62,463 nucleotides of DNA, from positions 1-62,463 of the IMG/VR virus record IMGVR_UViG_3300017788_000024, one strand, 5' to 3'. The notes beneath the pieces were generated by a model. It was not told where the DNA came from and did no database searches. It was given only the letters and a program-made list of their open reading frames with translations. Made by a program: the position numbers and the translations under genes. Positions within the stretch are counted from its first letter, which is position 1. Each line of letters opens with the position of its first letter. Source of the stretch: a virus (lineage: Duplodnaviria; Caudoviricetes). This document shows, one piece after another, positions 1,097 through 62,463 of this stretch.

Positions 1097-1098
1097 TG

Positions 1099-1776
1099 TC
1101 ATCCTCCTCCTAGATTAGTGGTTACTGTTCCGCCCTTCCCACTGAATGTAGATAGACCAACACCATGGAGTTGTGCAAACGAACCAAGACCAGCAGCAGT
1201 TCCTCCTAGGGTTCCTGCAATGATGTTCAATGCTCCATAGGACTCTCCAATTGGCTTCTGGCTGGAAAGTTGCATGTTTGGAATGATGAGGTCAAATCGT
1301 TGCTGAGCCATCATGTTTTGCATTTGTCTTTGGATGTTTGCTTCTGTTTGTTTGAAATTCCGATCTGATTGCAGTGCTTGTCCCAAGAAGTTTAGGCTTT
1401 GTGACAGACTTAATGCCTTTGCTGTTCCTCCAGTTATCCTAGATGAAGCAAGTCTTTGCCCTACTGCTCCCTTCATTTGCCGATATGTCTTGCTCATTTC
1501 TCCATCAACAAATGATTTTTGTCTGTCAAGAACTTTTAGAGAATCGCTTTCATAAAGATATGCAGCCCTTTGGATTGCAGCGTTTCGCTCTCGTTGCTGC
1601 ATCTCATTGTAGGATGCATTGAAGAGTTCCTTGCCATTGTTGATGGCCTTCTGCATCTCACCTTGAACCCAAGCCTGTTGTGCTTGTTGTTCCCTTCTTC
1701 TGGCGGCGGCGTTTCCAGCAATGCCTTGGAATATGCCACCTAGAATTCCAGCACCCAATGAAAGTTCTGCAAACAT
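1099..1776 (-). CDS. internal virion protein B (T7 gp14-like)
   Basis: 225 aa with hydrophobic G/A-rich ends and a Q/A-rich coiled-coil middle, typical of gp14-like ejection proteins; AGGAG RBS. Confidence 0.65.
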   Translation of the reverse strand: MFAELSLGAGILGGIFQGIAGNAAARRREQQAQQAWVQGEMQKAINNGKELFNASYNEMQQRERNAAIQRAAYLYESDSLKVLDRQKSFVDGEMSKTYRQMKGAVGQRLASSRITGGTAKALSLSQSLNFLGQALQSDRNFKQTEANIQRQMQNMMAQQRFDLIIPNMQLSSQKPIGESYGALNIIAGTLGGTAAGLGSFAQLHGVGLSTFSGKGGTVTTNLGGG

Positions 1777-45221: not shown

Positions 45222-45251
45222 AGTCTGGATCCTTTCTGGGTTATTACCCAA

Positions 45252-49195: not shown

Positions 49196-49265
49196 GATGT
49201 ACCTATCTCCTAGTTGACCCAGTTAGTGAAAGATCTGTGGTTGGGTCAGTTCACAGACCTTAGTT

Positions 49266-49328
49266 GCTGCGACAGTGCAGCCCAAGGACTCCCCCATTGC
49301 TGGGGGAGCCAAGGGCAGCACTGTCGCA
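49266..49328 (-). promoter_or_regulatory. hairpin element copy 1 (upstream of RNAP-2)
   Basis: gctgcgacagtgcagc plus ctccccca-ttgc-tgggggag plus gcactgtcgca. Confidence 0.75.
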
Positions 49329-49342
49329 ACGGAAGATCTTAC

Positions 49343-49732
49343 TTACTTGAGTTGTGGCGGACAGTTCTCTCCCTTCTTAATCATGGCCAGGATTGCGGCG
49401 TTTGCACGCCGACAATCAAACTTGGAGCCGAAGGTGTCGTGGAGGCTGCGTTGCCCCCACTTGGGGCCGGAGGTGTCGTGGAGGCTGCGCTCCCCGGCCT
49501 CCTTTCGACCCACCACCACAGATTCCACCGTCTTCCTCAAGGAGGAAATGAACTCCTCCATTGTGAAGATGGCGGTCTTGATCTCGTCCCCTGCAACACT
49601 CAGGGGAAGGCTCACCGAGAAAACTGGGACATCATAGCCCCCGCCTCGGTGAGCATGGTGGATGATGTAGCCAAACTTATCGCTACACCAGAGGGAGAGC
49701 CCCTCGCCTGCTGGACACAGATACCGTTTCAA
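49343..49732 (-). CDS. early hypothetical protein with a 13-aa tandem repeat
   Basis: TTG start after AGGAGG; RSLHDTSGPK / RSLHDTFGSK. Confidence 0.6.
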   Translation of the reverse strand: MKRYLCPAGEGLSLWCSDKFGYIIHHAHRGGGYDVPVFSVSLPLSVAGDEIKTAIFTMEEFISSLRKTVESVVVGRKEAGERSLHDTSGPKWGQRSLHDTFGSKFDCRRANAAILAMIKKGENCPPQLK

Positions 49733-49790
49733 TGGTATCCTCCTTTGCCCTATAGTGTAATGCCATGCATTGGGCATGTGCATGACATGT

Positions 49791-49844
49791 GCTGTGACAG
49801 TACAGCCATGGCTCCCCTATTGCTAGGGGAGCCGAGGTTATACT
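49791..49844 (-). promoter_or_regulatory. hairpin element copy 2
   Basis: gctgtgacagtacagc-cat-ggctccccta-ttgc-taggggagcc. Confidence 0.8.
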
Positions 49845-50049
49845 ATCCGTTCTCTTCCTCCAGCATGTGCTGGAGGACTTCTCCCGCGTAGGAAAGAAGA
49901 GTACCGCTAAGGACCACAGGGGGTGTTCCCAACTCCAAAACACCCGAGGGGCCCCTTGCGGAGAGCAAGAGATCCCTATCCCCGTACCAAATTGTGAACA
50001 CCCCAAACTGATTCGCCACCACACCGATGCAATGACTTTCCTTAGTCAT
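49843..50049 (-). CDS. early hypothetical protein
   Basis: 68 aa, AGGAG RBS, between elements 2 and 3. Confidence 0.6.
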   Translation of the reverse strand: MTKESHCIGVVANQFGVFTIWYGDRDLLLSARGPSGVLELGTPPVVLSGTLLSYAGEVLQHMLEEENG

Positions 50050-50107
50050 TACACTCTCCTATTGCCCTACGGTGTCATGTTATGCATCGGGCATGTGCAT
50101 GACATTT

Positions 50108-50162
50108 GCTGCGACAGTGCAGCCATGGCTCCCCTATTGCTAGGGGAGCCTAGGTTACACTG
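50108..50162 (-). promoter_or_regulatory. hairpin element copy 3
   Basis: gctgcgacagtgcagc-cat-ggctccccta-ttgc-taggggagcc. Confidence 0.8.
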
Positions 50163-50259
50163 ACAAGCCCGCAAGGACCGCGTAGAGGATCCATGCGGCG
50201 ATCGCGAACACCCAGACCAAACGATCAACATAACGCTGCATTCTTTGCGAGAAACGCAT
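50155..50259 (-). CDS. 34-aa early membrane peptide
   Basis: MRFSQRMQRYVDRLVWVFAIAAWILYAVLAGLSV; AAAGGA RBS. Confidence 0.55.
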   Translation of the reverse strand: MRFSQRMQRYVDRLVWVFAIAAWILYAVLAGLSV

Positions 50260-50298
50260 GACGGATTCCTTTGCCCAATGGTAGGCTGGGCTGCCTTT

Positions 50299-50354
50299 GC
50301 TGTGACAGTACAGCCATGGCTCCCCTATTGCTAGGGGAGCCAAGGACATACTGT
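50299..50354 (-). promoter_or_regulatory. hairpin element copy 4
   Basis: gctgtgacagtacagc-cat-ggctccccta-ttgc-taggggagcc. Confidence 0.8.
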
Positions 50355-50437
50355 TCTAATTGGGGGGGTAAGGGGGGTAACGCTACCTCCCAATTTGTTA
50401 CTACCCCCGTCCAAATTCCTGACCCCCTAGTCGATTT

Positions 50438-50581
50438 TTATTTTGCGGTTTTCTTGGACTCCCTGAATGCTCTTGATGTGGGGGCACCCTTGGATCCCGG
50501 CTTGCGCATCTTTTCTCCAGATCCTGCCTTGATTCTCTTCCGTTTTGCGTGTATGTTGTCGTAAAGACCTCTTTTCTTCAT
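50438..50581 (-). CDS. small basic phage protein
   Basis: MKKRGLYDNIHAKRKRIKAGSGEKMRKPGSKGAPT... Confidence 0.75.
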   Translation of the reverse strand: MKKRGLYDNIHAKRKRIKAGSGEKMRKPGSKGAPTSRAFRESKKTAK

Positions 50582-50582
50582 G

Positions 50583-50837
50583 TCAGCACTTCCACTTTCT
50601 TCGTGCCTTGCATGCCCTCTTGTCCGGGGTAGCACGGCAATCGATGTCGAATTTCTTGATCTGACCTAGGTTGCGGGCACAAAAGGACTTCTTTCTTGGT
50701 CCCCCTCCGGGTTGCGGCGGCTTGAGGTTGGATCCGGTCTTTCGGTTGATCATGGACCTTCCCTTGGCGGTAAGCCCTCCGCTTGGATCTTTGCATCCAT
50801 TCTTGATGCTACATCCTTTCATATCTCCCTTGCTCAT
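50583..50837 (-). CDS. small basic phage protein
   Basis: GGLTAKGR...GSNLKPP...RKKSFCAR...ARRKWKC; TAATG coupling to the giant ORF. Confidence 0.75.
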   Translation of the reverse strand: MSKGDMKGCSIKNGCKDPSGGLTAKGRSMINRKTGSNLKPPQPGGGPRKKSFCARNLGQIKKFDIDCRATPDKRACKARRKWKC

Positions 50838-53800
50838 TATGGTCCTCCTAGTTGTGGGGGTGGGGTTGATGGGTTTGAGGCTCTGGCCGATGCCTTCTTA
50901 CTACCCCAAGGTGTTAGAACTTGTACGTTCTTTGGTGGGGTTGGGGTGGTTGGAGCCTGAGGTTGCGTAGGAGCCACGGTATTGCCCTGTGTTGGGTTTT
51001 GTGGCGTTGTTGGTGTCTGGGTAGCCTGCGGGCTTGCTGCCTGCACAGGGGGAATCAGGGCGTCTAGGAATGGGGGCATGGATCTAGACAGATTTGAGTA
51101 CCCTGTTGGAAACAGTTCCTTAAGAAGGTCTCTTACAAGTTTATATTCATCCATGTGATCCTTGTCCATGATGTGGTTGGCTATGGATACAGGACTGAAG
51201 GAGGATCCATTGGATGAGGACTTTGTTTTTCTACCTGCTTGGTAATTGGGATCTATTGATCTTGTTATTCCATATCTTACGGTTGGTCCGATGGCCGGGA
51301 CCAACCTCAACAACAGATCCGCTAGTGCTGCTGAATCAAAGGTTTCATCTTGGTTAACGGCATCATTTACTATTCTTCCTGCTCTTGAAAATCCAGATAC
51401 CATGGCCATGAATGATGGTGGAAGACCAGCGGCCATGATTCTTGGATTTGTAAATTGATTCTTACCAGTGAAGACCGTGCTTCCACTGATTATTGCAAGT
51501 TGTGCAAGTGTTCCAAAAAGCATCCGGTTTGAGATGAATGGGTTTCTTGCAACAACGGATGCAATCTTGGTTATGTCCTCTCCGTTGATGTTTCCCCGTG
51601 AAATTCTTTCCAGATCGTCATCTGATATCACACCAGCAAGGAACATGAGGCCAAAGTTGTAGATGATGTCTGCTGCTGCCGCAACAAGAAGGCGACCGGC
51701 AAGGAGCATGGGTGTTGTCCTGCCATAAGTCTCAAGGGCAAACTGGGTGACGAACAGTTTTGGGAAGGATCGGTATAGGTTGAATAGGAATGATTTTGGA
51801 TCTCCCTTTGTGGGCCTGTCCAATGTGTTTCCTTCTACGATTGTTTGTCTTGCATATGCTTTTTGGAATCTTCCAACTGCTGCAAGTGCCTCATAAAGAT
51901 CGTTCTTTATCAAGCCCCCAGATTCAGGAACCTCTTCCCACAATGTTCTATTGAGGTCCATCTCCATTTGGATTTGGATGTTTCCGATGTCCAAGAACTC
52001 ACGCCTTGTGATTCCCTGCTTGGATGTCCCGTATCTATCTATGATGTACTTGAGTGCCTTTATGTTCTTGTCTGACAAAACCCCGGATTCCCACATGAGT
52101 TGCAGCAGCACCTTTTCTGTTCCTGCAAAGTCAAGTATTCTTTCTGTTCCGACCTCTCTTATTGCATTCTCATACATGTCTTGGTTCTTTGGTCCTTTGT
52201 AGTTCTTGATGAACTCAAGGTATTCTTCCATCTTCCCGAGCCTCTTGAGCAGTTGTCTTTGCCCTTGACGCATGAGTGCTGCTCTTAGTGCGGGTTCTGC
52301 AATGAGGTGAGAATCCCTTAGTCTCCTCCACCAACTTGCTCCCACAGCACCAAGGTTTCTACGATTCATTCCAAGTCTTTCCCTTGCATCAAATGGTATT
52401 TCGTCATAGTCAATAAGGTGATGCTCCATAAATCCTCTTGTTGCTGTGTCCATGTCAAACAACGCATCAGGCACCGTGGTCCACAATGATCTATTTAGCA
52501 GCCTGTTTCCATATCTTCTGCTGAATACGTTCACCAAAAGACCAGCCATTCCGGTAAGCATATCCTTGTAGAGGGAGATATGGTTTCCGCCAAACATGGC
52601 AGTTGTTGCTGCACCTATGGTACCTTCGTTAAGCATGGTTGCTGCGTTTCTGTTTGGTCCCCACATTGTTGTTGTAACCACATCGGCAGTCTTGACAAGA
52701 ATGTTTTCTGCTCCAGATCCTTCTGTTTCTTCGATCTTTGTGGCGGCACCAATTGCAAGATCATGCTTTCTCTTCACTTCCTTGAGGACAATATCCCAAT
52801 CACTATCTGATTGTGCTTTCTGGATTGCCTTAATGAGCCATGAAAAGGATAATCCCTTGACTCCGGTGAGGTCTTGTATTGCTTTGTTGTTGTATGCAGA
52901 TCTTGAAATATTCCTTTCCATGCCGACAATGATGGATCTCAGGTCAATTGTAAACCCTTCTTGCAAGATTCTTCCTTGTTCAGGGGTCAATCCATTGTCT
53001 TGACGAAAGATATCATTGGCAGTCAGGTCCAATGACGAGGAATCTGGCATGATTGTGCCATGGCCATGGGTCATAAGGTGCTTTCTGGCATGCAAGGAAG
53101 CCACGGAATATCCCATGTTGTCTATTGATTCCTTCATATACTTGGGAGGCGAAGACGATCCGTGGAAAATGGAGGAAAGACGACCATCTAGAATGTCCGT
53201 TGCATGGGAGACTACCGAGTAATCGCTTGTGTCCACCCTGTTTTTCAACTCATTGATCACAATATCCAATTGCTCAGGGTTCAAGGATTTGAAAATTGAT
53301 TTATAAGTGGCTCCAGACTTTGCCATTCTTAGTAATCTTATTGCAGCATCGTTCAAGGTTTCCTGAATTGATAAAAATTCACCACTGTATGGTGAGTATT
53401 TAATCTTAGACTTGAAGTTAAACTTTGCTTGCTTATCGTTTGGTCTTTTTTCTGCCCAAATATTTGAAGCAAACTCTTCAATCTCGTCCAGAATAAGTCT
53501 TTGACCGCGAGTAAGAACTTTGGTCCCGCCCATATCTTTATTTATTGAGGCATAAAACACCTGTATGGATGAAAGTACTCCCGTTTCGGTTGAAATGGTC
53601 TTGTCAATCTGGAAAAACCCTCCGCTAAGGTAGAGTGAGTAAGAATCTGCAATTCCATCTTGACGCATGTTTGAAAGAATCTTGTTTCGGTATGCAGTTG
53701 TAAGGGAATTCACAAAGGACGAGGCTGTTTCTGCTGTTGTCTCTGCAAGATAAGAGTTGTTTACTCTCAAGGCAATCATGTCTTTTGGCGGAATGAGTGA

Positions 53801-56800
53801 TTCTGTGTATGCTCCATACTTTTTTGCTATGTCTACGAAATTTTGCATGTTTCTTGCATACAGTTCAGCATGTTTTTTGGCATCCTCAAACATTTGATCT
53901 GTAAGTCTACCTCCCAAAGGAAGAGAATCTTTGCTTTCTGGTCTATCATAAAGAAGATAATCAAATGCACTCCTTTCAATCAGAATGCCTTGTTCTGTGT
54001 TATAGGTACTTCTTATGCGGTGTGAGTTTCTTACGACTGGTCTTGAAAACTGTTGAATATAGTTCAATGAGTGAAGGACTCCACCAACAGCACCACCATA
54101 TACATTTTGCCCCGATCCTTTTGTTGCATCTAGAAGAAAGCCTAGAGCCGCTAGGATTGGTTCAGATGATGCATAGGTGAGGTTTGCACTGTTTCCTCCC
54201 CCTATTCCATAGACTCCTCCTGTTCCAGGCTCGCCAATCTTTCTGGAAGTCCCATAGTACAAGACATCTGCAAGCCATTGCTTGATTCTTTTGCCTTTGC
54301 TTGGCAGGTCTCTGAGTATCCCGGCAATGCTGGCAATTTCTCCGCCCCTTCTGCCCCTAAGTGTTGCAACCTTTTCAAGAACAAAAGTAGCCAATGCTTT
54401 GTCTTCTGCCGCATTGCGTGGTTGTCTGCTTATTGTCATGTCTCCGTCAACAATACCAATCATTCCACTCATTTGTTTTAGATAATCTAATGTTGATTGT
54501 CCAAGAATAGTTCTTGATTTTGGACCAGATAAATATGGCTCGGTTTCTTCCACAAGTGAAGCAAATATTGCAGTCTGATCTTCATTCAATGTTTTGATTT
54601 GTTCAAGGTCGTTTCTAAGTGTTATCTTGTCGTGGAGTGTTTTTATGTCTGCCTCGGTCAACAGTGCTGATCCCTTCGGCAATTCAGTCAGTGGGTATGA
54701 GAATGATCTGGTTGCGATCTCTGCCAAGGCCCTAGACTTGCTATAGGTGTTTCCAAAATTGAACATTACCTCAATGGCATTGTCCATCAGTCTCATGGCT
54801 TCTGGGTTTTGATTTTTGAATACCTGCATTCTCTGTACAACGGATGAAGCCAATCTCTTTATTCTGTTGAACGCTCTTTCCCACCAACTGGCAGACTCAT
54901 CTGCAACAACATACTTGTCTCTTATTCTTCTTACATTTTCAATCACGCTCTTGTTGTTGATTGTTCTGGAAATAAGGATGAATGCTCCCCACTCAGCAAG
55001 GAACTCTTCTGGGTTTGTGGTATAGTGTTGGATCAGGTCGTTGATTTCCATGCGATCCCCAGAAAACATCGTTGTCACCATGTCTGTTATGGCATCCTTG
55101 CCAGAATTTGTCCTGAATGCAGTAAGGAACCCCTGATATACTTCACTATCTGTTTCAAGGTGTTGCATTCTTGCGATGTGGGATATTTCGTGGGCAAACA
55201 CTTCAAGTGCTTCTGGTGCTGCTCTCTTCTTCAGCAACTCTGGATTCAACTTGATTACAAACCTATCCTTAATCTGAAGTGATTTACCAGCACGCTCCAT
55301 GTTTGGGTCTAGTATTATGGATAGGTTGTTTGCAAACTCTTCGTTGTGGACAAGGATGATTCCAAGCATTCCCTTGTACAACTCGGCAGTCTCTTCCGAT
55401 ATTGCACCTTGTTTTACAAGGTCTTGAATGGCAATCTCAATCTTCTGTCCATCTACCCCGAAAGCACTTGTCAATCCATCTTCCTCCGCAAGAGAAAGGA
55501 CATCCTCATCCATTAGCCGGATTTCTTCTGTAGAATACTGGTGATTGGCTCTTTGTAGTGCCTTCTTTGCCTTGGTTACTTCCTTTGCATTGGTAATGTC
55601 AGTGACCCCAATGCTTTGAAGGACGCTGTTCAATACGTTTGGGATGTCTGCAATAGGTCCATTTAGTTCCACATATCTCTTGGCAGCATGGAAGTATTGG
55701 TTTCTGATCTCATCCCTATTTAAGGCTGAAAGATATGCCCCTGTATATTCTCTTGCCACGGAATAAAGGCTGTTTAGTTCCGCGTCACTCATGACATCGC
55801 CCACATATGCACGAAGTCTTCGTTTTGATGAGATGGTATTCTGGCCATCAACCTGTGCAAGGAGGATTACAGCGGGAATAATGTATTTGTTAGTTGAGTC
55901 TAGTAATGCACGCAGTTGCCTCCCTTCTTCCTCAAGACCATACATGTCTGCAAGTTGAATTGCTTGGTTGATCTTGGCTCCCCATGCCATATCAAGAGCC
56001 GTTCCTCTTGGATCACCATCCTTACCGGCAACATAATAACCTGCATCATATACCTCAAGAGGAAGACCAAAGTCACCACGCATTCTTGTGTTGTTGGTTG
56101 TCCTCAACTTGGTTCCTGCTCTTTGGTGAAGCAGGGCTAGGATGTCCATTTGATCTGCATACTCAAGTCTTTGCATCTCATAGAACTTTCTTCTCTCTGC
56201 ATTCATGAACTTCATGTTCTCATTGGTTGCAACTCCAACGTCCGACCCAAGTGCTGCTGCAATTTCAGCATTGTTGAAGAACACTTGGTTTCGGATCTGT
56301 GTGAACATTTTTTTAATGTCTTCAGGAGTAAGATGATACACGGCATTTGCACTTGTTCGTGAGGTATCGAATCTTATTAATCCACCAGATCTTACCTTTG
56401 GTGCCTTTCCAGATGATGTGTCTATTTTTGCTGCTTCCTCAAGGTTTTCAAAGTCAACCCTGTTCCCAATCTGCATTCCTCCATAATCATCAAGGAACAA
56501 GTAGAGATCAAAATCTCCATATGTACTCATTCTTTCCGACTGTAAGATCTCATCCAGAACTGCTTCTTGATATTGCAATGGAACAGAACTCAACAGCACA
56601 AATCCAGTGCCATCTTTTTCCAAGGAATCAAAGTTATCTGGGTCTACCTTTTTCATGTAGTTGGTTGCTATTTCCCTTCCGACAACCTCATACAGGACAC
56701 CGAAGATTACCCCCAAAGAGTCACGGCTTTGAACCGTAAGTGTTAGTATTCTTGTTTCTCTTTGGTCTGCGGCTGGATCTCCAGTTGCAAGCAAGTTGTT

Positions 56801-59800
56801 TGTTGGACTAAGACCGAGCGTCAATGGGCTGAGGCTATTGATTCCTTGCTGTGCCATGAATTTGAGGAAATCAATGTAGTACATTCCCTTTATCTTTCTT
56901 CCTTCAATTCCTACCATCCTGCCAAACTCAAGATAACTTCTTGACTCATGTGAAACATTGTCGTGGAAAGACCATAGGTTGGTGAGGTCTTGATACATTG
57001 CAAGAACGTTTCCTTGAGCCTCTTTGTATTCCGTTTGTTCTTCAATGCCTCCGCCCCTTAACTTCAACCTTTCCATCTTTCTTAAGAACGGATTGATAAT
57101 TGCATTGGTTATTTTCCAAATAGTAAACAGTTTGGCAATGTCTCCAGATTCAAGAATGTCTCGATATCCATTGGTTTCAGCAAACTTCTCAAGCACATGC
57201 ATTAGGTTGTTTGCTCTTAGTTCAATTCGTCTTGTTGAACTTCCGGTTGTCATTTCATATGTTGAATCAAATGGTGTTTCATAAACATAAGGTGTCTTGG
57301 ATCCCTTGTATCTATTCTTGTATCCTCTTGATTCCTTTGGAATAACATCGTTGATTGTGGCAATTTCTCGATCTGGTCTTTGTGCCCTTGTTTTTCTTGT
57401 TTCTTCCAACTCCCTTGCATAGAACATTTCTTGTAGTGAGAAGATTCCTCTTTCCTCCCATGGAATATCTGAGTATGGTGCCCTGAATGCAAGAAGTCCC
57501 TTTAGATTTGAATTGGAACCGGGATTGTATTCTGATTGAAGAGCATCACCCATGTTTCGTGATGGATCAAGAAGGAATCTAGCGGAGTTTCTAAGTAGTC
57601 CTCCATTGCTTCTTCTTAGGTCTCTTACATTATCTGGAAGAGTGGCCTCTTCTCCCATTCCTCTTGCCCACGCACGATTTTCTCTTTCAGACTTTCTCAG
57701 CCATTCTGTCATAAATCCTTGTCTGTTTTCCGAGTCTAATGAATAGCCGCCAAACTTTGGAGCATAGGATTTTGAAAGTTGGAGGGCTATGTGTCTTGCA
57801 ATAAGTTTTTCAATCTCTGTCTCCGCTTGCTCTCTCCCTAGTTTTCCAAGATTGTTTCTACCAAATTCCCACATTGCGTATGGGTTGTCATCCTTATTGT
57901 CTGGTGTGTTTTCTCTGACAATGGAGGACAACGCAGAGTTCATTGGTTGGTGCCTGTGCCCATGCATGTAAAGACGCTCACCACTTGAGTCAAGTCCCAT
58001 TAGAAAGAATATGTTGAAATCCTCAAAGCCCAGAAGATCTTTCTCCTCTAGATCTCTTCCCATAATTCTGGAATGCTCTTCAATCCTTCCCCTAATTCCC
58101 TCGGCCTCTGTTTCCCTAAGGCGATATGGAACCCTTTGAAGAGCATTAAGGGCCGTTAGGACTAGAGTAGACTTGTATGCTTCCTCATTGCCCATAAGGA
58201 TAACATTGAGTTCTCTCATTTGCTCGCTGTTAGAAGTTCTCCCACCAATTTTCTTCATGTATTTGTTTGCTTTGTTGATTCTTTTTTCGTAGGTTTTGAA
58301 AACTTCTTCTTCTGTTCTTCGTTCCATGGCAGCAATAAACTTGATTCTCTCTTTCAATGCTTCTTCGACTTGATTAAGAGAAAACATGCTCTTGCCTGCC
58401 TCGACAAACCCATTCTTGATTGCAATTTCCCGCAGTCTTGTATGCCATCCCGTAGATGCATATACCTCTCTTAACTCATTTGCAATTTTTTCAGATAGTT
58501 TTCTTCTTCCTGCTTCATCTAGGTTTCCAATGGCAGAATCCAATATGTTAAATTGGAGAAATGCTTTGGCATTCATGAGATGCTCTGCAATAAATCTTGC
58601 ATCAACACCATTCATGTTGTTTTCATTTTTTAATGCCCAATCTCTAATTCCTTCATGTACTGCCTTAAGACCACCCATGTAAAGTCTAGCAATCACTGCG
58701 ATTTTAAATGCATCTCGTCCTTTACCACTATCTAAGAACTCTCTTAGCCTATCTGTTTGCTCTGCGTTTTTTGTGTCTCGCCTTGCAATGTAAGCCAACT
58801 TGATTTTTTCAAGGTTGTCCCTAAGAATATCAACTGCCATTTGATATCTATCTTGTGGATTGTCCTTGAATTCCACTTCTTCAAGCATCCTATCCAATGC
58901 TGATCCGTCCTCATCCAAATACATAAGGGTAAGGGCAGCCATGTGGTGAATGCCGTTCATGTCGAAGTCGAAGTAATTGCTTAGGCTATATCCACCCTCT
59001 TTATAGGCAGCCTTTCCTCTTTCTAAAGACTTGTAGATCAGATCTGTTGTTAGGATTGGATATGTCATAACATGTGCAAACAGAGGCCCCAAACCAGATA
59101 GCAATGCTGCTCCTGATAGGGAACCCGGTGATAATGCATCGTCTGCAAATATTTTTCCTTTAACCTCCTCATTCAAGAAGATCCGTGATCCGGGAGCATA
59201 TGAAACCGAGTCGTGTTGCCACATCATTAGAAGTTCAGGAAGATCAAGCAAGGCTTCTATTGCTCTTCTTCGGTATTCATTCATATCTGGAAGTCGATTC
59301 AGCAGTCCTCTATTGTTTGTGTTTGGAAGAAGTTGCAAAAGCAATTCACTTATTTCTGCAATGACCTCATCAGGGTTTTCTCTCTGTTTCTTGTAGGCAT
59401 CGATGATTGCTGTTGCCGCTTCCCTGCTGCTTATTGGTGAACTAAGAATGTGACTAATTCTTTGCCTAAGTCTGTAGTCGCCATATGCAGTTTCAATTTC
59501 AGACAACGATCGTGGGAAAATATGGTTGACTTCCCCAAGCAAAGGCAGGCGGTAAATCATCGGCATGTCTACCTTATGAGATGCATCTGAAGCCTTGGCT
59601 ATTTCCTCGGCCCGCATTGCATCTGTCCCTCTTGCTATTATCCCCTCAGCATGGAGAGATTTCCTGAATCCCTGAGGTGTTCTTGTTATGATCTGAATGA
59701 CGCCCCTGCCTAGGCTGTTGCCAATCGCAAAGTCAATTTTTCCGTTTCCAAAATCAACAATATCAAACTCCTTGTGGCTGGAGTATTTTTTGATGGTGTG

Positions 59801-62463
59801 GACAATTAGGTTAAAGATGAAATCCTGTTCTGATTCTAGGCTATCCTTAGGAACAAAACCAACAATCTCAGCCAACTCAGAAAGGTCAAGTCTTGATTCC
59901 TTAATCTGATCCATGGCACCCTTGATAATTGAGTCAATGTATTGGTTTTTCTGTGTCTCTTTGCTTCCCTCAGCAAAGTTGATCCCGGGTATTCTTCCGC
60001 CTGTCTCAGTTATACCTCTTATGCTGATAGGAAGCCTGCTCCCTGCTTTTTCATATGCTGCCTTGTTGTTTTCTGAAGAAGCCTTTGAGTTCTCTCTTGC
60101 AATGTTTATTGCAGTGAGGTAAGCCTGTTCTTCTGGCGTAACCCCTCGTTCGGCAAGGTCCATCATTGCCTTGCCAAATGCCCTTGTGTTTGGGGAATAC
60201 TCAAGAGAAATAGCCATCAATGACATGATGATGGGTTGTGCCTTGTCTAGGTCAATTACAACCTTGGCAGAGCCATCTCTAGGAAGAACCCCATCAAATG
60301 CTGTTGCCATCTGCCTTCCCTCAGGAAGTGCGCGCCAATTAGAAACAGCATCCTCAACCCCACCAAAGATTTGGGATTGATATGATGCAAGACTCCAAGT
60401 TGGAATGATTGGCTTGAGTGCGACGGAGTAGATGTTTCCATCCGCATTCCTGATTCTTACGGCTGCTCCATCTCTTTGTCTTAGTTCCTTGAGAGTCTGG
60501 ATGGTAAGCCTTCCGTCAGACATGGAGTATTCATAAAGAAGCCTTCTTGCATCGGACTCACTCAATTCATTCATTTCCTCTACAATGACTTCCTTTTCAC
60601 CATCACTCATCTTTGAGTTGTCTATCTTAGACAAGTCTCTAATTGTAATGGTTCTTCCCATTGATCTCTTCTTCCACAATGTTGGCATATAACCTCGCCC
60701 AACCTTGCTTTCAAGGATGTTGAGTGCATCTGCTGTGTTGCCTAGGCTATACATCCTGCTTTTTGGTGTTGTGTCTGTGCTTGTTGTGCTGTCAAATGCT
60801 CTTAGGTTTTGGAAGATATCAACGCTTCTTAATACAATTCTAGCAGCAAGTTGTCTTGCTTCTGGTGTTCCAATTGTTTCTGCCATTGCAAGGAGGTCAA
60901 ATCCGTTTCCATTGAATGTTACAAGCATCTTTCCTTGGTTCTGCATGTCTTCAATCTCTTGAAGCATGCTCATTAGTTCTTCATTTGTGAATATGTTGCC
61001 ATCTCCACTGGATCTTACGGACTCAGGGTTTTCTGAATTATTCTCATCCATAAGAATGATTGTGTGAATGCCACCTTGATTGTCGAGGTGGGTCTCAATA
61101 TCAAAAGAGAATACTGTAGCAGTCTTTGCCCATTCAACTGGGTCCGTAAACTCCCTTGAGTTAAAGACCTCATCGCTTAACCCAAGATCCTTAAGAACGC
61201 TCTTGGCAATGGACACCATCTCGGCATGAGACATGTGTGCATTTCGTGTGTTTCCTCTGTCCCATCTAATAGCACTCTTAAACAAGACGGAAGCATCGAC
61301 ATCATCTAGTTTCTCAATCTCACTTAGGATCTTGCTAATAAAGGCAACATCAACAAACTTACCAAATTGAGGAAGTCTTCTCAGTGTTTCCAATCTATAG
61401 AGAAATGACCTTAGTTTGCCGTATAGAACCTCGCCCTCATTCTCTGAAAATAGATTGGCTGGTGGTATGATTCCCGGTGTAGATAGGACACCTGCGTCCT
61501 TAATTGTAATGGTTGGAACAATAGGATAATCCCCATCTGCCTCTTCAATAGAGGCCCCCTCTGTCTCAGGATCAATAGATGTTTCAGAGATTTCCGTTAG
61601 CGACTGCTTGTCTGAGAACTCCATATCCAAAATAAATCGTTCTCTAGATCCTGCATACTCAAAGGCAAGTGCCTTGTATTCAGAAAACAAAGCATCAACA
61701 TCCTTGCGTGTCAATGGCTTGTTCTTCTCCACCCGTTGCATGACAAAGTTGTCACCGAATAGTTTTCCTACCACAACAGCATCAACTGTGCTTGACTCTT
61801 TGAACAGTCCCTCGATAACTTGATTCTTGAATTGAATGTCTTCTGAGACCTCCGCAAGTTGCATAGCCAATTGCCTTCCAGTTGCTGGAGCATTGTCGAT
61901 AATGTTGTTAATTGCCACTGCTCTATTAATACCAAACTTAGACAATTCAGAGATCAATCTTCTTCTGTCCATCTCCAATCTTGATATTGCCCCACCCATT
62001 GGAGAGTCGTTTGTTTTTTCTATAAGTTTGGCCAAACTTTGTTTTAGTGTTTCGCTAATACTACCTGTCTCTTCTTTTATTTTTTCTATTTGCTTTTTGA
62101 TTCTAGCCGCTTCTTGTTTTAACCTTCTCTTTTGTGCCTCAGGAGATGAATCGATCTTTCTATTTAGTGCTTCTAATGAATTTCCTAGTTTTGTTAGTCT
62201 TTCCGCATTTTTTCTTAACTTGTCTTTTATCCTTTTTTTCTCATTGTCTAGACCTTTAGTTTCATTCTCCCTGAGGGTTTTATATGTTATGAGAGACTCT
62301 TCAATGATCCTCAGTTCTGCATCCAGTTCTTTTATCTTCCTGTAATCCCTTCCAAGTTTTGTGTTCTGCTTGTCAATGCGTTCTATCTTTCTTCTAATAA
62401 GACGCATCCTTCTTGCGCCTTTGGTGTTTCCTGCTGCTGCCAGTTCCTTCTCACGTTGAGCAA
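50837..62463 (-). CDS. giant multidomain protein, probably virion-borne: coiled coil, DEDD exonuclease, T7/N4-like RNAP, HExxH metallopeptidase; 5'-partial
   Basis: Frame stays open to the window edge (..AQREKELAAAGNTKGARRMRL); FDIETH/TFNGNGFD/YSMSD; DFDMNGIHH, PQDRY, RDAFKIAVIARLYMGG; AHEISH...EEFLAE. Confidence 0.85.
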   Translation of the reverse strand, partial: AQREKELAAAGNTKGARRMRLIRRKIERIDKQNTKLGRDYRKIKELDAELRIIEESLITYKTLRENETKGLDNEKKRIKDKLRKNAERLTKLGNSLEALNRKIDSSPEAQKRRLKQEAARIKKQIEKIKEETGSISETLKQSLAKLIEKTNDSPMGGAISRLEMDRRRLISELSKFGINRAVAINNIIDNAPATGRQLAMQLAEVSEDIQFKNQVIEGLFKESSTVDAVVVGKLFGDNFVMQRVEKNKPLTRKDVDALFSEYKALAFEYAGSRERFILDMEFSDKQSLTEISETSIDPETEGASIEEADGDYPIVPTITIKDAGVLSTPGIIPPANLFSENEGEVLYGKLRSFLYRLETLRRLPQFGKFVDVAFISKILSEIEKLDDVDASVLFKSAIRWDRGNTRNAHMSHAEMVSIAKSVLKDLGLSDEVFNSREFTDPVEWAKTATVFSFDIETHLDNQGGIHTIILMDENNSENPESVRSSGDGNIFTNEELMSMLQEIEDMQNQGKMLVTFNGNGFDLLAMAETIGTPEARQLAARIVLRSVDIFQNLRAFDSTTSTDTTPKSRMYSLGNTADALNILESKVGRGYMPTLWKKRSMGRTITIRDLSKIDNSKMSDGEKEVIVEEMNELSESDARRLLYEYSMSDGRLTIQTLKELRQRDGAAVRIRNADGNIYSVALKPIIPTWSLASYQSQIFGGVEDAVSNWRALPEGRQMATAFDGVLPRDGSAKVVIDLDKAQPIIMSLMAISLEYSPNTRAFGKAMMDLAERGVTPEEQAYLTAINIARENSKASSENNKAAYEKAGSRLPISIRGITETGGRIPGINFAEGSKETQKNQYIDSIIKGAMDQIKESRLDLSELAEIVGFVPKDSLESEQDFIFNLIVHTIKKYSSHKEFDIVDFGNGKIDFAIGNSLGRGVIQIITRTPQGFRKSLHAEGIIARGTDAMRAEEIAKASDASHKVDMPMIYRLPLLGEVNHIFPRSLSEIETAYGDYRLRQRISHILSSPISSREAATAIIDAYKKQRENPDEVIAEISELLLQLLPNTNNRGLLNRLPDMNEYRRRAIEALLDLPELLMMWQHDSVSYAPGSRIFLNEEVKGKIFADDALSPGSLSGAALLSGLGPLFAHVMTYPILTTDLIYKSLERGKAAYKEGGYSLSNYFDFDMNGIHHMAALTLMYLDEDGSALDRMLEEVEFKDNPQDRYQMAVDILRDNLEKIKLAYIARRDTKNAEQTDRLREFLDSGKGRDAFKIAVIARLYMGGLKAVHEGIRDWALKNENNMNGVDARFIAEHLMNAKAFLQFNILDSAIGNLDEAGRRKLSEKIANELREVYASTGWHTRLREIAIKNGFVEAGKSMFSLNQVEEALKERIKFIAAMERRTEEEVFKTYEKRINKANKYMKKIGGRTSNSEQMRELNVILMGNEEAYKSTLVLTALNALQRVPYRLRETEAEGIRGRIEEHSRIMGRDLEEKDLLGFEDFNIFFLMGLDSSGERLYMHGHRHQPMNSALSSIVRENTPDNKDDNPYAMWEFGRNNLGKLGREQAETEIEKLIARHIALQLSKSYAPKFGGYSLDSENRQGFMTEWLRKSERENRAWARGMGEEATLPDNVRDLRRSNGGLLRNSARFLLDPSRNMGDALQSEYNPGSNSNLKGLLAFRAPYSDIPWEERGIFSLQEMFYARELEETRKTRAQRPDREIATINDVIPKESRGYKNRYKGSKTPYVYETPFDSTYEMTTGSSTRRIELRANNLMHVLEKFAETNGYRDILESGDIAKLFTIWKITNAIINPFLRKMERLKLRGGGIEEQTEYKEAQGNVLAMYQDLTNLWSFHDNVSHESRSYLEFGRMVGIEGRKIKGMYYIDFLKFMAQQGINSLSPLTLGLSPTNNLLATGDPAADQRETRILTLTVQSRDSLGVIFGVLYEVVGREIATNYMKKVDPDNFDSLEKDGTGFVLLSSVPLQYQEAVLDEILQSERMSTYGDFDLYLFLDDYGGMQIGNRVDFENLEEAAKIDTSSGKAPKVRSGGLIRFDTSRTSANAVYHLTPEDIKKMFTQIRNQVFFNNAEIAAALGSDVGVATNENMKFMNAERRKFYEMQRLEYADQMDILALLHQRAGTKLRTTNNTRMRGDFGLPLEVYDAGYYVAGKDGDPRGTALDMAWGAKINQAIQLADMYGLEEEGRQLRALLDSTNKYIIPAVILLAQVDGQNTISSKRRLRAYVGDVMSDAELNSLYSVAREYTGAYLSALNRDEIRNQYFHAAKRYVELNGPIADIPNVLNSVLQSIGVTDITNAKEVTKAKKALQRANHQYSTEEIRLMDEDVLSLAEEDGLTSAFGVDGQKIEIAIQDLVKQGAISEETAELYKGMLGIILVHNEEFANNLSIILDPNMERAGKSLQIKDRFVIKLNPELLKKRAAPEALEVFAHEISHIARMQHLETDSEVYQGFLTAFRTNSGKDAITDMVTTMFSGDRMEINDLIQHYTTNPEEFLAEWGAFILISRTINNKSVIENVRRIRDKYVVADESASWWERAFNRIKRLASSVVQRMQVFKNQNPEAMRLMDNAIEVMFNFGNTYSKSRALAEIATRSFSYPLTELPKGSALLTEADIKTLHDKITLRNDLEQIKTLNEDQTAIFASLVEETEPYLSGPKSRTILGQSTLDYLKQMSGMIGIVDGDMTISRQPRNAAEDKALATFVLEKVATLRGRRGGEIASIAGILRDLPSKGKRIKQWLADVLYYGTSRKIGEPGTGGVYGIGGGNSANLTYASSEPILAALGFLLDATKGSGQNVYGGAVGGVLHSLNYIQQFSRPVVRNSHRIRSTYNTEQGILIERSAFDYLLYDRPESKDSLPLGGRLTDQMFEDAKKHAELYARNMQNFVDIAKKYGAYTESLIPPKDMIALRVNNSYLAETTAETASSFVNSLTTAYRNKILSNMRQDGIADSYSLYLSGGFFQIDKTISTETGVLSSIQVFYASINKDMGGTKVLTRGQRLILDEIEEFASNIWAEKRPNDKQAKFNFKSKIKYSPYSGEFLSIQETLNDAAIRLLRMAKSGATYKSIFKSLNPEQLDIVINELKNRVDTSDYSVVSHATDILDGRLSSIFHGSSSPPKYMKESIDNMGYSVASLHARKHLMTHGHGTIMPDSSSLDLTANDIFRQDNGLTPEQGRILQEGFTIDLRSIIVGMERNISRSAYNNKAIQDLTGVKGLSFSWLIKAIQKAQSDSDWDIVLKEVKRKHDLAIGAATKIEETEGSGAENILVKTADVVTTTMWGPNRNAATMLNEGTIGAATTAMFGGNHISLYKDMLTGMAGLLVNVFSRRYGNRLLNRSLWTTVPDALFDMDTATRGFMEHHLIDYDEIPFDARERLGMNRRNLGAVGASWWRRLRDSHLIAEPALRAALMRQGQRQLLKRLGKMEEYLEFIKNYKGPKNQDMYENAIREVGTERILDFAGTEKVLLQLMWESGVLSDKNIKALKYIIDRYGTSKQGITRREFLDIGNIQIQMEMDLNRTLWEEVPESGGLIKNDLYEALAAVGRFQKAYARQTIVEGNTLDRPTKGDPKSFLFNLYRSFPKLFVTQFALETYGRTTPMLLAGRLLVAAAADIIYNFGLMFLAGVISDDDLERISRGNINGEDITKIASVVARNPFISNRMLFGTLAQLAIISGSTVFTGKNQFTNPRIMAAGLPPSFMAMVSGFSRAGRIVNDAVNQDETFDSAALADLLLRLVPAIGPTVRYGITRSIDPNYQAGRKTKSSSNGSSFSPVSIANHIMDKDHMDEYKLVRDLLKELFPTGYSNLSRSMPPFLDALIPPVQAASPQATQTPTTPQNPTQGNTVAPTQPQAPTTPTPPKNVQVLTPWGSKKASARASNPSTPPPQLGGP

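What the first reader, a model, noticed from the sequence alone, without database searches (positions are those of the whole stretch)
49266..50354. Four covarying double-hairpin elements, each heading one early gene
Seen: consensus GCTGYGACAGTRCAGC-cat-GGCTCCCCTA-TTGC-TAGGGGAGCC at 49266, 49791, 50108 and 50299, lying 71, 59, 59 and 40 nt upstream of starts. Both stems show compensatory changes (T-A to C-G in the small stem; ccccta/tagggg to ccccca/tggggg in copy 1) while the loops are invariant. Known: N4 virion RNAP recognises template-strand hairpins near the first-injected end. Inference: hairpin promoters for the giant RNAP. Alternatives are RNase III sites as in T7 early mRNA, or gene-shuffling cassette boundaries. 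The same CTA-GCAA-TAG loop occurs in the terminator at 35238-35271, which favours an RNA role for the large stem.
Basis: partly seen in the sequence, partly recalled or inferred. Interest (0 to 1): 0.85.

Follow-up and report, generated by a model that had tools for sequence, protein, structure and literature searches.

The report
Repeated hairpin cassettes heading phage early genes
Four copies of a structured intergenic cassette each sit in front of one early gene of an undescribed phage that also encodes a cysteine-free 4,242-residue protein with an RNA-polymerase-like part, so they are good candidates for the signals that start and separate the phage's first messages.

Summary
In detail: four copies at the stated coordinates, none expected by chance. 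It is incomplete. All genes lie on the minus strand. Each cassette fills a whole intergenic space. On the sense RNA, the small hairpin competes with a longer interrupted hairpin that encloses the GC-rich stem. A structured leader follows, with a hairpin or pseudoknot next to the ribosome site. Twelve more copies in three related metagenome contigs, plus two diverged ones in a fourth, keep the architecture with compensatory changes. The large-stem loops are GCAA, GAAA or UACG only on the sense strand.

The "giant RNAP" is partly supported. There is no sequence match to N4 vRNAP. However, a motif-B-like segment of the predicted fold matches T7 and mitochondrial RNAP fingers best among 48,161 chains, and the protein has no cysteine.

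Best reading (0.40): composite early cassettes. The large or long hairpin acts in RNA. The highly conserved small hairpin is the candidate promoter for an injected RNAP. Main rival (0.33): T7-style RNase III processing sites. 5'-end mapping would decide between them.

The parts
50298..50361 (-). Cassette copy 4, first in the direction of transcription. Long interrupted hairpin core: 5' arm, upper stem 50318-50341 with GCAA loop, small hairpin 50299-50314.
   Evidence: MFE is one long hairpin; 77.1 bits on the sense strand against 32.5 on the antisense
50260..50297 (-). Alpha-type leader of copy 4: GCCCA...UGGGC hairpin, AAGGAA ribosome site, then ATG at 50259.
50155..50259 (-). 34-aa hydrophobic peptide gene. 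Its stop codon lies in the 5' arm of copy 3.
   Evidence: no PHROG; similar peptides precede cassettes in L001 and L039
50107..50170 (-). Cassette copy 3 core: upper stem 50127-50150, small hairpin 50108-50123.
   Evidence: 75.5 bits
50050..50106 (-). Beta-type leader of copy 3. Hairpin 3 has loop AUGCCCG, whose UGCCC can pair with GGGCA just 5' of the AGGAG ribosome site.
49843..50049 (-). 68-aa early gene of unknown function.
   Evidence: no Pfam or PHROG match
49790..49853 (-). Cassette copy 2 core: upper stem 49810-49833, small hairpin 49791-49806.
   Evidence: 77.6 bits
49733..49789 (-). Beta-type leader of copy 2. Hairpin 3 carries a U.G wobble that is valid only in sense RNA. Then ACACUAUAGGGCAAAGGAGG and TTG at 49732.
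49343..49732 (-). 129-aa early gene of unknown function. It contains a 39-nt tandem duplication at 49420-49495.
   Evidence: (D18)
49265..49331 (-). Cassette copy 1 core. A 13-bp lower stem (the inverted copy at 49315-49330 pairs with the small hairpin 49266-49281) encloses the upper stem 49287-49310.
   Evidence: -60.4 kcal/mol; 79.6 bits
49196..49264 (-). Gamma-type leader of copy 1. Hairpin GGUCUGUG...CACAGAUC has loop UGACCCA, complementary to UGGGUCA just 5' of the UAGGAGA ribosome site (pseudoknot).
   Evidence: covarying equivalents in L062 and L135
47435..49195 (-). 586-aa minimal T7-like single-subunit RNAP, the last gene headed by a cassette.
   Evidence: (PF00940, E = 9.4e-16), (DFRYR, QQDQTASG, IHDSFGTH seen in the alignments)
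50362..50440 (-). Conserved non-coding stretch upstream of the first cassette. It includes hairpin X, GGGAGGTA-GCGT-TACCCCCC (50372-50391), which has an A.C mismatch on the sense strand and G.T on the template strand.
50837..62463 (-). Giant gene, main part. It continues in frame from 1102..1 across the contig junction, giving 4,242 aa in all. The RNAP-like fingers lie at P0001 residues about 1185-1287.
1..1102 (-). N-terminal 367 codons of the giant gene, plus the first base of the codon that spans the contig junction.

Best explanation
Each element is one modular intergenic expression cassette of the phage's early region. It runs from the stop codon of one early gene to the start codon of the next and has three functional parts.

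(1) The GC-rich 7-10-bp stem with a GNRA or UNCG loop, extended by a lower stem into a hairpin of about 22 bp, forms in the sense RNA. It marks and protects the 3' end of the upstream message, by termination, insulation or processing.

(2) The small hairpin (6-bp stem, invariant loop region ACUGU, covarying stem) is the recognition site for the RNA polymerase that reads early genes. That polymerase is most likely the cysteine-free 4,242-aa protein brought in with the DNA. By analogy with N4 and LUZ7, initiation would lie about 13 nt 3' of the hairpin centre.

(3) The leader that follows folds into a hairpin or pseudoknot abutting the Shine-Dalgarno sequence and tunes translation or stability.

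The small hairpin and the lower stem exclude each other. Read-through RNA therefore adopts the long hairpin, while DNA opened at the promoter can adopt the small one.

Shown: the repeats, their confinement to the early region, the pairings and their covariation, and the sense-strand character of the large stem and the leader structures. Inferred: the promoter function, injection of the giant protein, and the fate of the RNA.
For: Repeats and confinement: 4 copies against 0 expected. The covariance model finds only these 4 in the window and 12 in relatives L001, L039 and L062, and nothing elsewhere.

Small hairpin plus upper stem: 95.1% of 247 cells are paired, against 38.5-56.6% when partners are slid. 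Pair 59-66 is UA 9, CG 5, UG 2. Pair 34-41 is CG 9, UA 4.

Upper-stem variants are GGCUCCCCUA-GCAA, GGCUCCCCCA-GCAA, GGCUCCCCC-GAAA, GCCUCCC-UACG and one ACAA. That these are stable tetraloops, and only on the sense strand, is recalled knowledge.

Leader structures: hairpin 3 has sense-only G.U pairs in W_c2, L001_3, L001_4 and L039_1. The three gamma leaders have three different complementary loop/downstream pairs: UGACCCA/UGGGUCA, UUGGGUCCA/UGGACCCAA and CCUCUAG/CUAGAGG.

Small hairpin conservation: all but 3 of the 18 positions of GGCUGYACUGUYRCAGCA are identical in 16 copies, although the adjacent RNAP-like proteins are only 34-66% identical. On the template strand it is 6 bp plus a 4-nt loop in 14 of 16 copies, the window's four through G.T. 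14 of 16 copies have G 13 nt 3' of the hairpin centre (read). LUZ7 early starts are G, 13-14 nt from the hairpin centre (PMC9163698 passage).

No sigma-70-like site lies on the sense strand of 49100-50900.

Giant protein: the best fold matches of P0001 1185-1287 are all single-subunit RNAPs. The top 11 of 504 chains score Z 7.0-9.5. In the unbiased search, T7 RNAP scores Z 8.7 and human mtRNAP Z 8.1 as the top 2 of 48,161 chains, with the next at Z 6.0. The matched segment holds RDAFKIAVIARLYMGG, with K1235 near-invariant in the family. Protein-language-model neighbours carry PF21867, PF00940 or PF21894 at scores of 0.82-0.84, which is a lead only. The protein has 0 Cys in 4,242 aa, against 1.59% in the other ORFs. 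LUZ7 and LIT1 vRNAPs are reported to be cysteine-free (PMC3715699 passage).
Against: The giant protein hits no PHROG, while N4 gp50 hits phrog_2206 at E = 0. BLASTP against N4 gp50 finds nothing. A 26-sequence profile finds no RNAP among PDB sequences. hhalign against N4 mini-vRNAP gives probability 0.1%. Foldseek gives no match at E <= 0.001.

The fold match covers only about 100 helical residues, at Z values the tool itself calls middling. Both models are of modest confidence (pLDDT 64.5 and 56.5). The palm aspartates are not identified.

The hairpin loop is 4 nt (6 nt on the window's sense strand), not 3 nt. In 2 of 16 copies (L039_2 and L039_3) the stem has a C.A mismatch on the template strand.

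The lower stem is kept in all 16 copies: 89.7% of 359 cells are paired, against 39-46% when slid, and 19-58 is U.G in 16 of 16. It overlaps the small hairpin, and a pure promoter does not need it.

Sense and antisense RNA folding energies of the 64-nt core differ by only 0.4 kcal/mol on average.

The first early gene of L001 and of L135 has no cassette in front of it.

Three of the four window copies have no U after the large stem, so classical termination is unlikely. No transcript data could be obtained.
Confidence: 0.4

Rival explanations
1. These are pure RNA processing and stability sites of a polycistronic early transcript, as in the T7 early region. One promoter upstream of the first cassette makes a long early RNA. 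Each interrupted hairpin of about 22 bp is cut by host RNase III. The upstream message keeps the tetraloop hairpin at its 3' end. The freed 3' arm refolds into the small hairpin at the 5' end of the downstream message and protects it.
For: With flanks, the sense-RNA MFE is the long hairpin in all 4 window copies and in 15 of the 16 64-nt cores. The lower stem is kept with G.U pairs, and 11-65 covaries (AU 6, GC 3, GU 3). The upper stem has sense-only tetraloops. One site stands before each early gene, including the first phage RNAP gene. The genome has T7-like replication genes and T7-like RNAP genes. The first genes of L001 and L135 lack a cassette, so a promoter upstream of the cassettes must exist. 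The only Rfam near-hits are sub-threshold miRNA precursors, which are generic long hairpins. The layout of T7 early RNase III sites is recalled from the literature; only two reference-list entries were seen.
Against: RNase III has little sequence specificity, yet the small hairpin and the ACAGU/ACUGU core are nearly invariant across 16 copies, while the stems and leaders around them vary. Pair 17-59 of the lower stem holds in only 8 of 16 copies, whereas 59-66 of the small hairpin holds in 16 of 16. No upstream sigma-70-like promoter was found. The host, and therefore its RNase III, is unknown. No RNase III gene turned up among the 31 window proteins scanned against Pfam.
Confidence: 0.33
2. 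The small hairpin is an RNA operator. A phage or host RNA-binding protein recognises its invariant loop in the leaders of all early messages and co-regulates their translation or decay.
For: The loop and stem top are invariant while the stem covaries. A U.G pair valid only in sense RNA occurs in 2 of 16 copies. The site lies in the 5' untranslated region of every cassette-headed gene.
Against: No candidate RNA-binding protein was identified: the early proteins have no Pfam or PHROG match. The hairpin lies 24-55 nt upstream of the start codons, not over the ribosome site (distances). It competes with the lower stem.
Confidence: 0.1
3. These are PeSL-like cassettes, as in T4-type phages: a stem-loop attenuator plus a host sigma-70-type early promoter plus a ribosome site, repeated between small variable genes and serving as recombination linkers.
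For: They have the same span (stop codon to start codon, about 100-150 nt), a G/C-rich stem-loop, and positions between small unknown genes. PeSLs are described this way in PMC2839356 (abstract and passages) and PMC4122927 (abstract). The gene content of the slots differs between the window, L001, L039 and L062, while the same leader types recur. By eye, weak 8-of-12 matches to -35/-10 exist in the alpha and beta leaders. That is my inspection, not a tool result.
Against: The promoter scan finds no site with 9 or more of 12 matches on the sense strand. The -10-like words are not conserved among copies. Hairpin 3, which would hold both hexamers, carries sense-only G.U pairs, as expected for RNA. 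The phage encodes up to three RNAPs of its own.
Confidence: 0.08
4. The repeats are only recombination scars or selfish small repeats left by gene shuffling, with no role in expression.
For: Cassettes border the slots whose genes differ between relatives.
Against: Compensatory changes occur in three separate helices and in the gamma pseudoknot across four or five genomes. All copies have the same orientation and register relative to stop and start codons. A distant relative, L135, keeps the architecture with different sequence.
Confidence: 0.05
5. The true promoter is a T7-type duplex promoter in the beta leader (ACACUAUAGGGCAA, initiating at GGG) for the 809-aa or 586-aa RNAP, and the hairpins are accessory.
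For: The motif resembles T7, SP6 and K11 promoter cores (recalled). The alpha leader of copy 4 begins ATTGGGCA, like the Syn5 promoter ATTGGGCACCCGTAA (PMC3950665 passage).
Against: The motif occurs only in copies 2 and 3 of the window and nowhere else in 62 kb. GGGCA is accounted for by pairing with the UGCCC loop or with GCCCA. Starting there would leave out hairpin 3, which shows RNA-type covariation. The polymerases concerned are encoded downstream, so they cannot start the infection.
Confidence: 0.04

Closest known systems
N4-type virion-RNAP hairpin promoters (coliphage N4 P1-P3; LUZ7 early and middle promoters)
   Same: Both are small hairpins with conserved loop and stem-top bases and freely covarying stem positions. 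Both sit in front of early genes next to the probable first-entering end. In both cases the phage also carries a giant, cysteine-free, possibly RNAP-containing protein and a small T7-like second RNAP. A G lies 13 nt 3' of the hairpin centre in 14 of 16 copies. LUZ7 middle promoters have stems of at least 6 bp and loops of 3-4 nt (PMC4496689 and PMC9163698 passages).
   Different: The loop is 4 nt (ACAG on the template strand), not a 3-nt purine-centred loop. The N4 -17..+1 consensus is absent. The hairpin is embedded in a larger palindrome and preceded by a GC-rich tetraloop hairpin. The genome is T7-like and single-stranded in gene orientation, not Schitoviridae-like. The giant protein is not a sequence homologue of N4 gp50.
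T7 early-region RNase III processing sites (R0.3, R0.5, R1, R1.1, R1.3; recalled from the T7 literature)
   Same: One interrupted hairpin of about two helical turns, with internal loops, stands before each early gene including the phage RNAP gene. The copies are related to each other in sequence. The upstream product would end in a protective hairpin.
   Different: There is no sequence similarity to the T7 sites. The apical loops here are GNRA or UNCG tetraloops. The 3' arm can refold into a second, highly conserved hairpin. Cleavage is untested and the host is unknown.
PeSL regulatory cassettes of T4-type phages (PMC2839356, PMC4122927)
   Same: Both are repeated cassettes of about 100 nt that run from stop to start codon, with a G/C-rich stem-loop and a ribosome site. 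Both lie between small variable genes of unknown function. Slot contents differ between relatives.
   Different: PeSLs are defined by a strong sigma-70 consensus promoter, and none is detectable here. Here there are two or three separate covarying RNA-type structures.
Intrinsic terminators of the same genome (35238-35271 and about 20540-20585, minus strand)
   Same: Both have a GC-rich stem with a GCAA or GAAA loop. The CUA-GCAA-UAG top is identical to that of the cassette stem.
   Different: The terminators carry a run of nine U. The cassette stems are followed by AUGG, UUGGG or UUU(G/A)GG, and then by the small hairpin.

Membership tests
N4-type vRNAP hairpin promoter | The phage carries a virion-packaged giant single-subunit RNAP | tested here: inconclusive
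   The fingers-like segment matches T7 and mitochondrial RNAP best (Z 8.7-9.5). It has a motif-B-like sequence and the protein has 0 Cys. Against this: no PHROG, BLAST, HMM or hhalign match. The palm motifs were not found. Packaging is not testable here.
N4-type vRNAP hairpin promoter | Template-strand hairpin with a 4-7-bp stem and a conserved 3-nt loop | tested here: not met
   The stem is 6 bp on the template strand in 14 of 16 copies, but the loop is 4 nt (ACAG). On the window's sense strand it is 5 bp plus 6 nt.
N4-type vRNAP hairpin promoter | Conserved loop and stem-top bases, with other stem positions free as long as they pair | tested here: met
   ACUGU and the four outer pairs are invariant. 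Pair 59-66 is UA 9, CG 5, UG 2.
N4-type vRNAP hairpin promoter | Initiation 11-14 nt 3' of the hairpin centre; dependence on supercoiling and SSB | not testable with these tools
   The only observation is that 14 of 16 copies have G at +13.
N4-type vRNAP hairpin promoter | Location at the first-injected genome end | tested here: inconclusive
   The cassettes follow terminase, the giant gene and a conserved non-coding stretch, where a T7-like left end would be. The contig is circularly permuted and the physical ends are unknown.
T7-type early RNase III site | Sense-RNA hairpin of about 20 bp or more with internal loops, lying between early genes | tested here: met
   (long hairpin in 15 of 16 cores)
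T7-type early RNase III site | Cleavage by host RNase III within a polycistronic transcript | not testable with these tools
   No transcript data are available and the host is unknown.
PeSL cassette (T4-type phages) | Contains a sigma-70 consensus early promoter | tested here: not met
   No site with 9 or more of 12 matches on the sense strand in 49100-50900.
PeSL cassette (T4-type phages) | Repeated stop-to-start cassette with a G/C-rich stem-loop between variable small genes | tested here: met
Intrinsic (rho-independent) terminator | GC-rich hairpin directly followed by a U run | tested here: not met
   None of the 4 sites the terminator scan reported in 49100-50900 is a cassette stem. The tails are AUGG or UUGGG. 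Compare the T9 run at 35238-35271.
Any Rfam 15 family | Score at or above the gathering threshold | tested here: not met
   Only 3 tRNAs in the window. In 49150-50450, only miRNA-precursor hits at 21-25 bits, against thresholds of 50-124.

The most novel reading that the evidence does not exclude
A previously undescribed lineage of T7-architecture phages runs its whole programme on three single-subunit-type RNA polymerases. The first is hidden in a 4,242-aa cysteine-free ejected protein that evolved or diverged beyond sequence recognition from N4 vRNAP. Its promoters are a new class of bistable element. The same 16 nt either forms the DNA promoter hairpin or, in read-through RNA, closes a 22-bp processing or termination hairpin. 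In this way the end of one early message is coupled to the start of the next.
Probability: 0.2. Interest if true: 0.85.

Novelty: new variant of a known kind. Interest (0 to 1): 0.66.

Why it matters
Hairpin promoters read by an injected giant RNAP are known only from N4-like phages (Schitoviridae). Finding an analogous system in a genome built like T7, with two further T7-like RNAP genes, would show that the injected-polymerase strategy is wider and older than one family. It would also supply a new polymerase and promoter pair for study. If the cassettes are instead RNase III-type sites, they extend the T7 early-mRNA processing design to a distant uncultured marine lineage. Either way they give a clean natural example of two conserved, mutually exclusive RNA folds. 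In both cases the 16 aligned copies, the covariance model and the defined coordinates make the question directly testable by 5'-end mapping and by in vitro transcription or cleavage.

Tried and rejected
N4 homology by sequence. Pfam and PHROGs scans of the giant protein, BLASTP against N4 gp50, phmmer and a 26-sequence profile against PDB sequences, and hhalign against N4 mini-vRNAP all found no RNAP. Foldseek on the 1,151-residue model gave no match at E <= 0.001. The second, shorter AF2 model was poorer (pLDDT 56.5) and did not resolve the palm.

A general phage promoter. k-mer enrichment over 30 intergenic gaps gave only Shine-Dalgarno words. The 22-nt exact repeat at 28474 and 43680 is coding (GTGGFGS), not a promoter. 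GACACTATAGGGCAA-like and ATTGGGCA-like motifs are not repeated outside the cassettes.

Strand assignment by folding energy. Sense and antisense cores differ by only 0.4 kcal/mol on average, so I do not use energy as an argument.

More relatives. A protein search with the 586-aa RNAP alone found nothing. An alignment of that RNAP with its L001 and L062 homologues found L135, and L136, which is the L001 contig again. The giant-protein search found L138 and L139, but both contigs stop at or just after the giant gene and hold no cassette. Of the 118 stretches of DNA the metagenome pattern scan matched, only L039, L062 and L103 (the L001 contig again) are relatives. The others held single matches that I took for chance from their context.

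Nearest isolates. No phage record is close. The only DNA hits are to the small Lys-rich genes of cyanopodoviruses. The 809-aa RNAP is about 27% identical to Autographiviridae RNAPs.

Literature. Searches (listings only) showed no paper on a phage with this organisation. That is not proof that none exists. Supplementary tables listing the LUZ7 and LIT1 hairpin promoters were closed and could bear on the comparison of loop and stem.

Transcript evidence.
Full report
CONTEXT. The window is a whole 62,463-base contig, and every long ORF is on the minus strand. The ORF at 1102..2 runs in frame across the contig junction into the giant ORF at 62461..50837, giving one 4,242-codon gene. The contig is therefore a circularly permuted assembly.

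In the direction of transcription the order is as follows: structural genes; large terminase (1789-3453); a 225-aa gene; the giant gene; small Lys-rich genes (50438-50837) related to genes of cyanopodoviruses P60, S-RIP1 and P-SCSP1; a conserved non-coding stretch; and the four cassettes with their genes. The last cassette-headed gene encodes a 586-aa minimal T7-like RNAP (47435-49195; PF00940, E = 9.4e-16). After it come three tRNAs, DUF932, ThyX, an 809-aa T7-like RNAP (37966-40395; E = 6e-84), primase-helicase, family A DNA polymerase, dUTPase and a ribonucleotide reductase.

No isolated phage is close. The 809-aa RNAP is about 27% identical to Autographiviridae enzymes. The host is unknown.

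THE OBSERVATION. It is confirmed at the stated coordinates and is far beyond chance. Because the genes are on the minus strand, the element reads on the sense strand as 5' arm, GC-rich stem, spacer, small hairpin, leader, ribosome site, start.

With flanks, the minimum-energy fold of the sense RNA is not two hairpins in any of the four copies. It is one long interrupted hairpin: a lower stem built on ACAGU/ACUGU, a CC/GG step, an internal loop, and the 10-bp upper stem with a GCAA loop. In copy 1 the lower stem is 13 bp, because an inverted copy of the small repeat lies at 49315-49330. The stop codon of the preceding gene lies in or next to the 5' arm. Each cassette therefore fills the whole space between two genes.

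RELATIVES. Pattern scans found the same cassettes in three uncultured contigs: L001 (4 copies; L103 and L136 are the same contig), L039 (3 copies) and L062 (5 copies). L001 has the same gene order: giant gene, small genes, conserved non-coding stretch, cassettes, RNAP-like gene. In L062 a 584-aa RNAP-like gene likewise follows the last cassette.

A more distant contig, L135, has an RNAP-like protein 52% identical to the window's. It carries two diverged cassettes with the same plan and different sequence: upper stem GUCCGCC/GGCGGAC and small hairpin GGCA-ACUC-UGCC.

A covariance model built on the 16 copies finds only those 16. It finds nothing elsewhere in the window, and nothing in L135, L138 or L139. 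Sense-strand scores are 56-83 bits, against 13-36 bits on the antisense strand.

WHICH STRUCTURES ARE SUPPORTED. Counts were made on the 16-copy alignment A2.

Upper stem plus small hairpin: 95.1% of 247 cells are paired, against 38.5-56.6% with slid partners. Changes on both sides occur at 34-41 (CG 9, UA 4), at 35-40, and at 59-66 (UA 9, CG 5, UG 2). MAFFT put the three UACG copies one column out of register, so the upper-stem figures are underestimates.

Long hairpin: 89.7% of 359 cells are paired, against 39-46% when slid. Pair 19-58 is U.G in 16 of 16 copies. Pair 20-57 is A-U in 10 and G.U in 6. Pair 11-65 is AU 6, GC 3, GU 3, other 4. Pair 17-59, however, is paired in only 8 of 16.

Both folds are therefore kept, and they exclude each other. 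The copies are related, so these counts are not independent events, and most columns are invariant.

The upper stem has five versions whose loops are GCAA, GAAA, UACG and one ACAA. On the sense strand three of these are the classic stable RNA tetraloop types (recalled knowledge). On the other strand they are not.

DOWNSTREAM LEADERS. The leaders come in three types.
- Alpha: GCCCA...UGGGC hairpin.
- Beta: a 10-12-bp hairpin 3 whose loop UGCCC is complementary to GGGCA next to the ribosome site.
- Gamma: found ahead of two of the four RNAP-like genes (the window's and L062's) and, in diverged form, ahead of L135's.

In beta leaders, hairpin 3 carries sense-only G.U pairs in four copies. The three gamma leaders keep a complementarity between a hairpin loop and the downstream sequence, with three unrelated sequences: UGACCCA/UGGGUCA in the window, UUGGGUCCA/UGGACCCAA in L062, and CCUCUAG/CUAGAGG in L135.

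These features show that the large stem and the leaders act as sense RNA, so the DNA 3' of the small hairpin is transcribed. Folding energy does not tell the strands apart: the mean difference is 0.4 kcal/mol.

IS THERE A GIANT RNAP? By sequence, no. There is no Pfam RNA_pol and no PHROG match, whereas N4 gp50 used as a control hits phrog_2206 at E = 0. BLASTP, a profile against PDB sequences, and hhalign all find nothing.

Four weaker lines of evidence agree with each other.
- Protein-language-model neighbours of residues 900-2350 carry PF21867, PF00940 or PF21894. The scores are 0.82-0.84, which is a lead only.
- The family comprises 40 representatives, 22 of them over 3,000 aa. It conserves RxxxKxxxxxxxYxGG-like and DxxxxGxHH-like motifs, with K1235 and D1147 near-invariant.
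- In AF2 models of modest confidence, the segment 1185-1287 that holds the K/Y motif matches RNAP fingers best. Yeast mtRNAP scores Z 9.5, T7 RNAP 568-689 scores Z 9.2, and N4 mini-vRNAP scores Z 4.6. The top 11 rows of 504 chains are all single-subunit RNAPs. In the search that does not depend on Foldseek, T7 RNAP (Z 8.7) and human mtRNAP (Z 8.1) are the top two of 48,161 chains, with the next at Z 6.0.
- The protein has no cysteine in 4,242 residues, against 1.59% in the other ORFs. This property is reported for the vRNAPs of LUZ7 and LIT1 (PMC3715699 passage).

I put the chance that the giant protein contains a polymerase module derived from single-subunit RNAPs at about 0.7. The palm aspartates are not identified, and neither packaging nor activity has been shown.

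WEIGHING THE READINGS. The small hairpin is the most conserved part of the cassette: all but three of 18 positions are fixed in 16 copies from genomes whose neighbouring RNAP-like proteins share 34-66% identity. That pattern fits sequence-specific recognition by a protein better than a mere RNase III duplex or a stabiliser.

On the template strand the small hairpin is a 6-bp stem with a 4-nt loop in 14 of 16 copies. No sigma-70-like promoter is present. G lies 13 nt 3' of the hairpin centre in 14 of 16 copies, which is the geometry of LUZ7 early starts. A phage that brings its own RNAP needs such sites in exactly this place.

On the other side, the lower stem with its many G.U pairs is real. 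A promoter does not need it, and it overlaps the hairpin. The first gene of L001 and of L135 has no cassette. The plan of one interrupted hairpin before each early gene, including the RNAP gene, is that of the T7 early RNase III sites (recalled).

I therefore favour a composite cassette at 0.40. In it, the RNA hairpin serves the upstream message, the small hairpin is the promoter candidate, and the structured leader serves the downstream gene. The pure RNase III-type reading stands at 0.33. The two readings are not fully exclusive.

The other readings are less likely for the reasons given under Rival explanations: PeSL-like host-promoter cassettes, an RNA operator, a T7-type duplex promoter in the beta leader, and mere recombination scars. 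The cassettes do border slots whose genes differ between relatives. A side role as recombination linkers, as proposed for PeSLs (PMC2839356 passages), is therefore plausible whatever their primary function.

WHAT IS KNOWN AND WHAT IS NEW. No Rfam family matches. The elements are not N4 promoters in the strict sense: the loop length and consensus differ, and the giant protein is not a sequence homologue of gp50. They are not PeSLs, because there is no sigma-70 promoter. They are not intrinsic terminators, because there is no U run. They work most like one or both of N4-type hairpin promoters and T7-type processing sites, in a lineage for which two searches found no description (listings only).

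I file them as a new variant of a known kind.

LIMITS. Supplementary tables of the N4-like promoter papers were not available. Residue numbers of the T7 and N4 motifs, the stability of tetraloops, the T7 RNase III site layout, and the resemblance to SP6 and K11 promoters are recalled, not taken from any call.

Noticed in passing
window 1-1102 and 50837-62463 (minus strand): The giant ORF wraps the contig junction, giving 4,242 aa with no cysteine at all. It has weak Pfam hits to an RNase_H_2-type exonuclease (P0001 435-537, E = 6e-4) and to a SprT-like zincin with an HExxH motif (2365-2413, E = 6e-3). The family has 40 representatives in the 1.84-billion-protein library, 22 of them over 3,000 aa.
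   Followed up: partly
window 47435-49195 and 37966-40395 (minus strand): There are two separate T7-like single-subunit RNAP genes in one phage. One is a 586-aa minimal form lacking the N-terminal domain. It is reminiscent in size of N4 RNAPII, though only weakly similar to gp16 (E = 0.003). The other is a full 809-aa form. With the giant protein, that makes up to three phage RNAPs.
   Followed up: partly
window 50372-50391, 46775-46794, 45724-45750, 45525-45551 (minus strand): Hairpins topped GGUA-N4-UACC recur in non-coding DNA of the early and middle region. Hairpin X, just upstream of the first cassette, is conserved in L001. It has an A.C mismatch on the sense strand that becomes G.T on the template strand. 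These may be a second hairpin-signal family.
   Followed up: no
window 46714-46819: Two tandem 53-nt repeats (83% identical) rich in GTAC and GGTACC words lie in an ORF-poor stretch downstream of the 586-aa RNAP gene. They could be an origin or a promoter array.
   Followed up: no
window 45375-45794: This is an ORF-free 420-nt stretch next to three tRNA genes (Lys-UUU, Arg-UCU, Ile-UAU at 44873-45327). It is bracketed by two near-identical CUAGGGUAGAAAUA(C/U)CCUAG hairpins. It may encode a small RNA. It has no Rfam match.
   Followed up: no
window 28474-28495 and 43680-43701: A 22-nt exact repeat encodes GTGGFGS. One copy is the C-terminal motif of the dUTPase gene (28462-28899). The other ends a reading frame that spells MTGTGGFGS and then stops; whether that frame extends further upstream was not checked.
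   Followed up: partly
window 50438-50837 (minus strand): Small Lys-rich genes after the giant gene are the only part of the genome with DNA-level similarity to isolates (69-76% to cyanopodoviruses P60, S-RIP1 and P-SCSP1). They match C-terminal parts of much longer PHROG families.
   Followed up: no
window 35238-35271 and about 20540-20585 (minus strand): These are canonical intrinsic terminators with GCAA and GAAA loops and nine U. The first shares the CUA-GCAA-UAG top with the cassette stem.
   Followed up: yes
window 50155-50259; L001 9478-9576; L039 130-231: Each genome has a hydrophobic peptide gene of 32-34 aa among the cassette slots, in a different position relative to the cassettes. 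The remaining slot genes differ between genomes, which is a sign of shuffling.
   Followed up: partly
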